NCBI RefSeq assembly: GCF_003334815.1 | Contig: NZ_QOWO01000037.1 | Length of the DNA stretch: 37,002 nucleotides | DNA from: Escherichia coli | Lineage (GTDB): Bacteria; Pseudomonadota; Gammaproteobacteria; Enterobacterales; Enterobacteriaceae | Strand: one strand, 5' to 3' | Position numbers and translations under genes: made by a program | Notes under the pieces: generated by a model | What the model was told of the DNA's origin: nothing | Databases searched by the model: none | Seen by the model: only the letters and a program-made list of their open reading frames with translations | Part shown: positions 1,661-1,854 of the stretch, one piece after another | How positions within the stretch are numbered: position 1 is the first letter of the stretch | Layout of the letters: every line of letters starts with the position of its first letter

Positions 1661-1674
1661 TCGTAGGCATTAGA

Positions 1675-1845
1675 CATTTGTGCCTGATGCGACGCTTGAC
1701 GCGTCTTATCAGGCCTACAACCGGTGCCGCATCCGGCAATTGGTGCACAATGCCTGATGCGATGCTTGACGCATCTTATCAGGCCTACAATGGGTACCGG
1801 ATCGGTAGGCCGGATAAGGCGTTTACGCCGCATCCGGCAAGAATA
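1675..1845. repeat. cluster of REP (repetitive extragenic palindromic) elements, BIME-like
   Basis: Near-identical palindromic units gcctgatgcgacgcttgacgcgtcttatcaggcctacaa (1682-1720) and gcctgatgcgatgcttgacgcatcttatcaggcctacaa (1752-1790), plus ggccggataaggcgtttacgccgcatccggcaa (1808-1840), lying between convergent ybcF and purK. Confidence 0.85.
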
Positions 1846-1854
1846 GAGCACCAG

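What the first reader, a model, noticed from the sequence alone, without database searches (positions are those of the whole stretch)
1661..1854. Three-unit REP/BIME cluster between convergent ybcF and purK
Two near-identical REP copies differing at two positions, plus a third of the complementary type, fill the whole 194-nt convergent intergenic region. Such clusters bind gyrase/IHF and stabilise upstream mRNA; they probably act as the terminator for both genes.
Basis: partly seen in the sequence, partly recalled or inferred. Interest (0 to 1): 0.2.

Follow-up and report, generated by a model that had tools for sequence, protein, structure and literature searches.

The report
Known REP (BIME-2) repeat cluster
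The gap between the convergent E. coli K-12 genes ybcF and purK holds an ordinary, already catalogued cluster of REP palindromic repeats (a BIME-2 array), which varies in copy number between strains and shows no sign of being a classical terminator.

Summary
The window is E. coli K-12 MG1655, and 1661-1854 is the whole 194-nt ybcF/purK convergent spacer.

**What is there**
- Two 37-nt z2-class REPs lie at 1682-1718 and 1752-1788.
- They differ only at 1693/1763 and 1703/1773, a compensatory C:G to T:A pair in the upper stem.
- One 35-nt y-class REP lies inverted at 1805-1839.
The array is therefore two z2-y pairs, and the first y has lost 31 nt.

**Classification**
- It is a BIME-2, and Sutormin et al. 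2018 already list it as one.
- The same locus holds 1 to 5 pairs in other E. coli. It is also occupied in E. whittamii.

**Interpretation: partly right**
- REP/BIME identity is correct.
- IHF is not supported, because it belongs to BIME-1 and no consensus site is present.
- Gyrase evidence is weak: one cleavage site, found only under rifampicin plus ciprofloxacin.
- "Terminator for both genes" is not supported. No U-tract follows any hairpin, and published Term-seq tables record no 3' end here.

The hairpins most likely protect the 3' ends of both mRNAs. The feature is already known and of low interest.

The parts
767..1660 (+). ybcF (putative carbamate kinase), last gene of its operon. Its TAG stop lies 21 nt upstream of the first REP stem.
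1663..1669 (+). GTAGGCA in the K-12-type left flank. It may be a collapsed y REP, deleted between its two GGC repeats. This is inference only. The flank is shared with strain TUM10828 and E. whittamii but replaced by a different y-remnant flank in SE11-type alleles.
   Evidence: inference
1682..1718 (-). z2-class REP no. 1, 37 nt. The GTAG-bearing strand is the - strand, and the + strand reads GCCTGATGCG...GGCCTAC. Structure: 7-bp lower stem, AA/GC mismatch, 5-bp upper stem, 5-nt loop.
1719..1726 (.). AACCGGTG, the first 8 nt of a tail-to-tail (S) linker. It compares with AGTCGGTG/AGGCGGTG in full units of other alleles.
1727..1738 (+). Stump of a second y REP (CCGCATCCGGCA, its last 12 nt). 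The exact repeat with 1827-1840 runs 1726-1739. Compared with a full 101-nt unit, 31 nt are missing: 8 nt of linker and 23 nt of y, including GTAG. The single published gyrase cleavage site maps to 1726.
1739..1751 (.). Head-to-head linker ATTGGTGCACAAT, the 'l' type. It aligns to the Y-l-Z2 linker of the Rfam naRNA4 model.
1752..1788 (-). z2-class REP no. 2, 37 nt. It differs from no. 1 only by the compensatory pair 1763 T / 1773 A.
1789..1804 (.). Tail-to-tail (S) linker AATGGGTACCGGATCG, 16 nt.
1805..1839 (+). y-class REP, 35 nt, with GTAG on the + strand. It matches the published consensus at 33 of 34 positions. T11, A12A13/G26C27 and G32 are all in place.
1855..2922 (-). purK, the distal gene of the purEK operon. 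Its TAA stop lies 16 nt upstream of the y hairpin as read on the - strand.

Best explanation
The spacer is a BIME-2-type array of REP elements. REPs are the short palindromic repeats present in hundreds of copies in E. coli. They are recognised as folded single-stranded DNA by the REP-associated tyrosine transposase (TnpA-REP/RAYT).

**Structure.** The K-12 allele is two z2-y pairs: z2 - (S stub + y stump) - l - z2 - S - y. The first y has a 31-nt internal deletion.

**How it arose (inferred).** The array sits in a gene-free convergent spacer, where it is tolerated. It expands, contracts and recombines between its near-identical units. The likely routes are replication slippage or unequal exchange, possibly with TnpA-REP cleavage at the CC|T sites present in each z2. 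This would explain why the same locus holds 1 to 5 pairs in different strains.

**What it does for the host (inferred).** Both convergent transcripts (...ylbF-ybcF and purEK) run into GC-rich hairpins with no U-tract. These hairpins most likely do not release RNA polymerase themselves. They would stop 3'-to-5' exonucleases after transcription has ended further downstream, by Rho or by collision. That would define and stabilise the mature 3' ends.

**DNA level.** The array is at most a weak, transcription-independent gyrase site.

**Shown here:** sequence identity, class, anatomy, polymorphism, absence of terminator and IHF signatures, and the one published gyrase cut.
**Inferred from family knowledge:** RNA 3'-end protection, the slippage or RAYT origin of the copy-number changes, and any topological role.
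For: - **Identity and class:** for sequence, structure and the 33/34 match to the published consensus quoted. Searches give the class lengths (y 35, z2 37, z1 29).
- **BIME-2 architecture:** alternating orientation, a 16-nt S linker and a 13-nt l linker, matching the definition. The locus is listed as 'BIMEs2 550578-550734' in Sutormin 2018 Table DS3, mapped to the window through W3110 coordinates.
- **Repeated family:** 7-49 places per genome, median 30.
- **Polymorphism:** spacer alleles of 126, 136, 194, 204, 232 and 532-533 nt, equal to 1, 1, 2, 2, 2 and 5 pairs. The K-12 allele is in 1684 of 5110 genomes at >=99% identity. In an evenly spaced sample of 60 genomes, 20 were K-12 type, 3 were SE11 type and about 19 had one pair.
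- **Occupied in other species:** 3 pairs in E. whittamii and 1 pair in Escherichia sp. E1V33.
- **Hairpin maintained:** the only two differences between the z2 copies are a compensatory pair. The probability is about 0.006 for two random substitutions, or 0.017 for transitions only. The C:G, T:G and T:A states all occur at that pair across alleles, and 100% of cells are paired.
- **Not an intrinsic terminator:**
- **3'-end protection as a family property:**
- **RAYT determinants:** GTAG, the bulge and the TGCC|TGAT and GGCC|TACA sites are all present. Compare.
Against: - No experiment at this locus shows mRNA stabilisation or maps the 3' ends.
- The Term-seq tables searched contain nothing for purK or ybcF. 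That neither supports nor excludes hairpin-defined ends, because ybcF is probably silent and purEK is low in those media.
- Only one gyrase cleavage site is recorded, and only under Rif+Cfx.
- The copy of the RefSeq record available here carries no REP annotation, so prior annotation rests on the Sutormin table.
- The shuffle control for pair conservation is not significant with only 8 distinct sequences: 307 of 500 shuffles reach the observed value.
- TnpA-REP involvement in the copy-number changes is not distinguishable here from plain slippage or homologous exchange.
Confidence: 0.9

Rival explanations
1. One reading: the cluster is the bidirectional transcription terminator of ybcF and purK. 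RNA polymerase stops and releases at the REP hairpins on both strands.
For: - Stable hairpins lie 21 nt and 16 nt after the two stop codons.
- Reviews list transcription termination or attenuation among REP/BIME roles. REPs are said to sometimes act directly in Rho-dependent termination (citing Espeli et al. 2001).
Against: - The scan finds no terminator-like site, and no T-run follows any hairpin on either strand.
- The Term-seq tables as held have no purK or ybcF entry and no coordinate in 551,3xx-551,5xx.
- Dar and Sorek describe REP hairpins mainly as the stable end left after trimming of Rho-terminated transcripts.
- The number of hairpins varies from 2 to 10 between strains. That is hard to reconcile with a tuned terminator.
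Confidence: 0.12
2. The array is primarily a DNA-level protein-binding site. A strong gyrase site (and/or IHF site) would relieve the positive supercoils that build up between the convergent operons.
For: - BIME-2 elements are significantly enriched in gyrase cleavage sites, preferentially in y REPs, and the signal rises when transcription is blocked.
- One trusted cleavage site maps to window 1726, in the y stump.
- The convergent-gene setting fits the twin-domain model (established knowledge).
Against: - Only 1 site, and only in the Rif+Cfx set. There are none with Cfx, microcin B17 or oxolinic acid, against 6/4/0/5 for sucB-sucC. The authors say only a subset of BIME-2 is bound.
- IHF is tied to the BIME-1 L linker. 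No consensus site lies in the spacer.
Confidence: 0.15
3. The array is a gene for a nucleoid-associated noncoding RNA of the naRNA4 (REP325) kind. That RNA is a Y-l-Z2 two-hairpin molecule that works with HU to bridge DNA cruciforms.
For: - The only Rfam family hit in the spacer is naRNA4 (RF02564), on the ybcF-sense strand.
- Intact units at the same locus in other strains score 76-83 bits, above the 59.5-bit gathering score.
- naRNA4 is defined as Y-l-Z2 from a BIME-2 array.
Against: - In K-12 the best hit is 43.9 bits, below threshold. The only internal Y-l-Z2 unit has lost most of its Y hairpin, and both hairpins are reported to be needed.
- The Rfam model is essentially a model of y and z2 REPs, so a hit restates the BIME-2 identity and does not show function.
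- No promoter-like site lies in the spacer.
Confidence: 0.04

Closest known systems
BIME-2 (bacterial interspersed mosaic element, family 2; Gilson, Bachellier, Hofnung, Boccard), for example the sucB-sucC and tldD-yhdP arrays
   Same: - z2 and y REPs alternate in orientation.
- A short S linker joins the tails and an l-type linker joins the heads.
- The array is tandem and its copy number differs between strains.
- It is extragenic.
- It is already listed as BIME-2 in Sutormin 2018 Table DS3.
   Different: - It is small, with two pairs.
- One y is reduced to a 12-14-nt stump, so the local period is 70 nt instead of about 100.
- There is almost no in vivo gyrase cleavage (1 site in one condition, against many at sucB-sucC).
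REP325 / naRNA4 (Rfam RF02564, Qian et al. 2015)
   Same: The building blocks (y, l linker, z2) and the strand logic are the same. Other alleles of this locus pass the family's gathering score.
   Different: - The K-12 allele scores below threshold because the Y hairpin of its only internal unit is deleted.
- There is no evidence of a discrete RNA or of HU binding from this locus.
BIME-1 / RIP-RIB elements (y + L linker + z1, IHF-binding)
   Same: It contains a y REP and lies between genes.
   Different: - The partner REP is 37-nt z2, not 29-nt z1.
- There is no long L linker and no IHF consensus.
- It occurs in tandem, whereas BIME-1 is a single copy.
Rho-independent (intrinsic) terminators
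   Same: GC-rich stem-loops lie just after stop codons on both strands.
   Different: - There is no U-tract after any stem.
- The stems carry a conserved internal mismatch and a GTAG/CTAC tail.
- The sequence is repeated throughout the genome.

Membership tests
E. coli REP (y / z2 classes) | Imperfect palindrome of 35 nt (y) or 37 nt (z2) that folds as a single strand | tested here: met
   The units at 1682-1718 and 1752-1788 are 37 nt and the unit at 1805-1839 is 35 nt. Each folds as ssDNA at -10.3 to -12.8 kcal/mol, with z from -3.7 to -6.3. Lengths are as stated.
E. coli REP (y / z2 classes) | Conserved GTAG tetranucleotide 5' of the hairpin foot (CTAC on the complement) | tested here: met
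   GTAG is at 1805-1808 on the + strand. CTAC is at 1715-1718 and 1785-1788 on the + strand. The requirement is described.
E. coli REP (y / z2 classes) | Conserved AA/GC mismatch (bulge) in the middle of the stem | tested here: met
   All three units show the 2x2 internal loop in the GTAG-strand fold. y positions A12A13/G26C27, T11 and G32 match the numbering.
E. coli REP (y / z2 classes) | Match to the published consensus | tested here: met
   y matches GCCGGATGCGGCGTGAACGCCTTATCCGGCCTAC at 33 of 34 positions (consensus quoted). z2 aligns to the Z2 half of the Rfam naRNA4 consensus with one extra loop base.
E. coli REP (y / z2 classes) | Extragenic and present in many copies per genome | tested here: met
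   The array lies between the ybcF and purK stop codons.
E. coli REP (y / z2 classes) | Cognate TnpA-REP (RAYT) gene in the same genome | not tested
   The gene is not in this window. The MG1655 REPtron is described in Ton-Hoang et al. 2012.
BIME-2 | z2 and y REPs in alternating, inverse orientation, with a short S linker and s/l/r flanks | tested here: met
   The order is z2> (y stump) l z2> S <y. S is 16 nt and l is 13 nt. One y is truncated.
BIME-2 | Tandem copies whose number varies between strains at one locus | tested here: met
   Eight E. coli alleles carry 1, 2 or 5 pairs, and E. whittamii carries 3 pairs.
BIME-2 | Cleaved by DNA gyrase in vivo | tested here: inconclusive
   Published Topo-seq gives 0/1/0/0 sites (Cfx/RifCfx/Micro/Oxo). 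The one site is at W3110 550,621, which is window 1726. Only a subset of BIME-2 is cleaved.
BIME-1 / RIP (IHF-binding) | z1 REP (29 nt) and a long L linker with an IHF site | tested here: not met
   The Z units are 37 nt. The z1 of the glxK-allE BIME-1 is 29 nt. No WATCAANNNNTTR match lies in 1661-1854.
naRNA4 (Rfam RF02564) | Score at or above the gathering threshold of 59.5 bits | tested here: not met
   The K-12 allele scores 43.9, 42.1 and 31.8 bits. Intact units in strains 2016C-3878 and 1448 score 76-83 bits.
Intrinsic terminator | GC-rich hairpin followed directly by a U-tract | tested here: not met
   The scan finds 0 sites in 1400-2100. The 15 nt after each hairpin on each strand contain no T-run.

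The most novel reading that the evidence does not exclude
In strains with intact arrays at this locus (2 to 5 full y-l-z2 units, each above the Rfam naRNA4 threshold), the ybcF 3' UTR may be a second, condition-dependent source of HU-binding naRNA4-class RNAs, and its dosage would differ between E. coli lineages. On this reading the K-12 lineage lost the only complete unit through the 31-nt deletion. The compensatory C:G to T:G to T:A series would then reflect selection on the RNA or ssDNA hairpin, not only hitch-hiking of a selfish repeat.
Probability: 0.08. Interest if true: 0.35.

Novelty: already known. Interest (0 to 1): 0.07.

Why it matters
It matters little for discovery. REP/BIME arrays have been known since the 1980s, and this one is already in a published BIME-2 list.

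The result is useful as a calibration case. It shows that "REP cluster" does not mean "terminator + gyrase + IHF site". The class (BIME-2, not BIME-1) decides which proteins are relevant, and the locus-specific data here show almost no gyrase cleavage and no mapped 3' end.

The allele series of 1 to 5 pairs, the clean 31-nt deletion and the compensatory pair give a compact illustration of how these arrays evolve.

Tried and rejected
- **Mis-spaced pattern.** My first z2 search pattern had one base too many before the loop and returned 0 matches. This was an artefact and was corrected by the regex scan.
- **No REP annotation in RefSeq copy.** The copy of NC_000913.3 available here lists only CDS features at the locus. 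Prior annotation was taken from Sutormin 2018 Table DS3 instead.
- **Loci not visible to Python.** Loci fetched from BLAST hits (L003-L009) were not visible to the Python sandbox. I read the sequences with get_sequence and pasted them in.
- **Papers and supplements not held.** These were the supplements of Ton-Hoang 2012, Dar and Sorek 2018 and Qian 2015, and the paper of Liang, Rudd and Deutscher 2015. The RepRanger supplements hold nothing for this locus. The rule "REP within 15 nt of the stop codon" was therefore taken second-hand. By that rule ybcF (21 nt) is outside and purK (16 nt) is just outside.
- **Literature search.** A search for purK together with REP found nothing relevant.
- **Adams 2021 Term-seq tables.** They have no entry for purK or ybcF, and no coordinate in 551,3xx-551,5xx.
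- **Rejected readings.** These were BIME-1/IHF, intrinsic terminator, coding potential of the 40-95-aa ORFs that cross the array (they consist of REP sequence), and a promoter inside the spacer.

Full report
**1. Where we are**

The 394 nt around the finding are 100% identical to E. coli K-12 MG1655, BW25113 and many other strains. In NC_000913.3, ybcF (b0521, putative carbamate kinase, + strand) ends at 551,332. purK (b0522, - strand) ends at 551,527. Window coordinate + 549,672 therefore gives the genome coordinate, and window 1661-1854 is exactly the 194-nt spacer between the two convergent stop codons.

**2. What is in the spacer**

Reading the sequence, the repeat finder and a motif scan give the following layout.

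| Window | Feature |
|---|---|
| 1682-1718 | GCCTGATGCGACGCTTGACGCGTCTTATCAGGCCTAC, 37 nt |
| 1752-1788 | the same unit with two changes |
| 1805-1839 | GTAGGCCGGATAAGGCGTTTACGCCGCATCCGGCA, 35 nt, opposite orientation |
| 1726-1739 | GCCGCATCCGGCAA, an exact copy of 1827-1840, the 3' end of the 35-nt unit |

- Each full unit folds alone, as DNA or RNA, into a 7-bp lower stem, a 2x2 AA/GC internal mismatch, a 4-5-bp upper stem and a 4-5-nt loop. The tetranucleotide GTAG (CTAC on the complement) sits outside the foot.
- The whole spacer folds at -87.5 kcal/mol on the + strand and -88.9 kcal/mol on the - strand. The z-scores are -5.4 and -5.6 against dinucleotide shuffles.
- The 35-nt pattern occurs once in the 37-kb window and never in 100 shuffles.
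With the E-value limit tightened to 1e-40 the median is 1 place per genome, so the extra places are short matches.

**3. Class of each unit**

Corneloup et al. 2021 give the three E. coli REP types as y (35 nt), z1 (29 nt) and z2 (37 nt). All three have GTAG and a conserved AA-GC mismatch. In y they number T11, A12A13, G26C27 and G32.

- The unit at 1805-1839 fits that numbering base for base. It matches the published consensus GCCGGATGCGGCGTGAACGCCTTATCCGGCCTAC (quoted) at 33 of 34 positions. It is a y REP.
- The two 37-nt units are z2. For contrast, I read the z1 of the nearby glxK-allE BIME-1, GTAGGCCTGATAAGCGAAGCGCATCAGGC, which is 29 nt long.
- The only Rfam family hitting the spacer is naRNA4 (RF02564). 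Its consensus is a y hairpin, an 'l' linker and a z2 hairpin. This independently confirms both classes and the linker type.

**4. Architecture**

Ton-Hoang et al. 2012 define the two main families.

- BIME-2 consists of z2 and y in inverse orientation. A short S linker separates them, s/l/r sequences flank them, and the element occurs as tandem copies whose number varies between strains.
- BIME-1 consists of z1 + y with a long L linker that often carries an IHF site.

The K-12 spacer reads as follows:

- left flank, 20 nt
- z2
- AACCGGTG + CCGCATCCGGCA
- ATTGGTGCACAAT (the l linker)
- z2
- AATGGGTACCGGATCG (the S linker)
- y
- right flank, 15 nt

Full units in other alleles have a period of 100 nt (36 + 16 + 35 + 13); the K-12-type full unit is 101 nt. 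Against that unit, the first K-12 unit lacks exactly 31 nt: the last 8 nt of S and the first 23 nt of y, including GTAG. The local period is therefore 70 nt.

The "three-unit cluster" is thus a two-pair BIME-2 with one y reduced to a stump. Sutormin et al. 2018 already list "BIMEs2 550578-550734" in their Table DS3. In W3110 the spacer is 550,556-550,749, so that interval equals window 1683-1839. The element is previously catalogued.

**5. The two differences are a compensatory pair**

- Positions 1693/1763 (C>T) and 1703/1773 (G>A) face each other in the upper stem. Copy 2 therefore has T:A where copy 1 has C:G.
- For two random substitutions in a 38-mer, the probability of hitting one pair and restoring Watson-Crick pairing is 0.006. 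It is 0.017 if only transitions are allowed.
- Across the eight distinct z2 sequences seen at this locus, that pair occurs as C:G (1), T:G (4) and T:A (3). All 96 pair cells are standard pairs on the + strand.
- With so few sequences the shuffle control is not significant (307 of 500 shuffles reach the observed value).
- This is suggestive evidence that the hairpin is maintained. It is not proof.

**6. The locus in other genomes**

Representative alleles were fetched and parsed.

| Spacer length | Content | Example |
|---|---|---|
| 126 nt | one pair, K-12-type left flank | strain TUM10828 |
| 136 nt | one pair; left flank is a y remnant plus l linker | strain FHI_NMBU_11 |
| 194 nt | two pairs, first y truncated | K-12 |
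| 204 nt | same array as K-12, with the other left flank | SE11 |
| 232 nt | two pairs with a 36-nt z2 variant (loop CTGGCG) | strain 2016C-3878 |
| 532-533 nt | five pairs | strains 1448, DEF2 and GPEC1356 (DEF2 and GPEC1356 are 532 nt; GPEC1356 by length only) |

- Of 5110 genomes with a locus-specific match, 1684 carry the K-12 allele at >=99% identity.
- In an evenly spaced sample of 60 genomes, 20 were K-12 type, 3 were SE11 type and about 19 had one pair. The rest were variant arrays.
- A scan of one genome per species found the locus occupied in two other Escherichia. E. whittamii has three pairs and mixes both z2 loop types in one array. Escherichia sp. E1V33 has one pair.
- At least one z2-y pair is present in every allele examined.
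- The occupancy is therefore old, the copy number is fluid, and units and flanks have been reshuffled.

**7. Testing the functional claims**

*Terminator*
- The consensus scan finds no hairpin-plus-T-run on either strand of 1400-2100.
- The 15 nt after each of the six hairpin contexts contain no T-run.
- The Term-seq tables of Adams et al. 2021, as held, contain no purK or ybcF entry and no coordinate in 551,3xx-551,5xx. This is weak negative evidence, because expression in those media is low.
- Dar and Sorek 2018 summarise the current view. Rho-dependent transcripts end downstream and are trimmed back to a stable stem-loop. REPs are one source of such stems, and only sometimes do they act directly in Rho-dependent termination.
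- I conclude that the array is not an intrinsic terminator. It more likely defines and protects the 3' ends. This is an inference from family knowledge.

*IHF*
- IHF is tied to the BIME-1 L linker.
- No IHF consensus lies in the spacer. The three matches in the window are elsewhere and are no more than expected by chance.

*Gyrase*
- BIME-2 elements are enriched in cleavage sites, mostly in y REPs, and only a subset is bound.
- This locus has 0/1/0/0 sites in the Cfx/Rif+Cfx/microcin/oxolinic-acid sets. sucB-sucC has 6/4/0/5.
- The single site, at W3110 550,621, maps to window 1726, at the deletion junction of the y stump.
- The locus is at most a weak site.

*Translation coupling*
- REPs within 15 nt of a stop codon are reported to stall ribosomes.
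- Here the gaps are 21 nt for ybcF and 16 nt for purK. No such effect is predicted, although purK is borderline.

*naRNA*
- The K-12 allele scores 43.9 bits, below the naRNA4 gathering score of 59.5. Its only internal y-l-z2 unit has lost the y hairpin.
- Intact units at this locus in other strains score 76-83 bits.
- The model is built from y and z2 REPs. The scores therefore restate BIME-2 identity and do not show an RNA function.

**8. Mechanism committed to**

- **Identity (confidence about 0.95).** This is a BIME-2 REP array, a member of the repeat family whose units are bound and cut as folded single strands by TnpA-REP. GTAG and the bulge are the determinants, and cleavage occurs at CC|T sites. 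All of these features are present in the three full units. The stump lacks GTAG.
- **Dynamics (inferred).** Tandem gain, loss and exchange of about 100-nt units occur by slippage, unequal recombination or TnpA-REP-mediated excision and insertion. One 31-nt deletion became fixed in the lineage that gave rise to the K-12 and SE11 alleles.
- **Host-level effect (inferred, about 0.6).** The hairpins act as 3' exonuclease barriers for the two convergent mRNAs. There may be some Rho-linked attenuation and a weak gyrase site.

**9. Verdict**

The feature is already known, is ordinary for E. coli and is of low interest.

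Noticed in passing
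window 6336-6361: A 26-nt stretch holds a palindrome, CCGGATGCGAGTTTTCGCATCCGGTT. It lies 12 nt after a + strand ORF that ends ...WRRK* (probably cysS, named from memory). It shares the y-REP head GCCGGATGCG but has no GTAG/CTAC tail and no T-run. Sutormin 2018 Table DS3 lists it as a 25-nt 'BIMEs2' (W3110 555,231-555,256) with no gyrase sites.
   Followed up: partly
L012 (NZ_JAAARM010000155.1, 379 nt, coverage 0.75): A contig deposited under 'Pseudomonas sp. Fl4BN1' is the E. coli K-12-type ybcF 3' end plus this BIME-2 allele, including the truncated y. It has a few mismatches. It is almost certainly E. coli contamination of that assembly.
   Followed up: partly
window 1682-1788 and z2 copies in L003-L008 (alignment A1): The stem variants T:G at pairs 12-22 and 14-20 and G:T at pair 1-33, plus a C/T site in the loop (column 19), could all arise as C>T changes on the + strand if C is ancestral. 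Polarity was not tested; T:G is the commonest state at pair 12-22. G>A appears only as the compensating second step. The + strand is the lagging-strand template on this replichore (my inference from the map position). The pattern could reflect deamination of exposed single-stranded DNA or selection for G:U-tolerant RNA pairing. There are too few events to decide.
   Followed up: partly
window 1661-1680; L003/L004 201-230; L005 201-220: Two unrelated left flanks exist: TCGTAGGCATTAGACATTTG, and TGATGAGAGCATCCGGCAATCGGTGCACCA (a y remnant plus l linker). Each is found with both a one-pair array and the two-pair K-12-type array. This implies recombination or conversion inside the array. The K-12-type GTAGGCA could be a y REP collapsed between its two GGC repeats.
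   Followed up: partly
L004 285-288; L008 1682-1685 and 1882-1885; L013 (E. whittamii) y copies 1 and 3: Several y copies at this locus have a mutated GTAG (GTAA, GTGG, GTAT). GTAG is reported to be essential for TnpA-REP binding and cleavage in E. coli. These copies are therefore predicted to be dead as transposase substrates while still forming hairpins.
   Followed up: no
L006 285-362; L007 285-662: Intact y-l-z2 units at the ybcF-purK locus of strains 2016C-3878 and 1448 pass the Rfam naRNA4 gathering score (76-83 bits against 59.5) on the ybcF-sense strand. The Rfam family would therefore annotate up to four 'naRNA4' genes there.
   Followed up: partly
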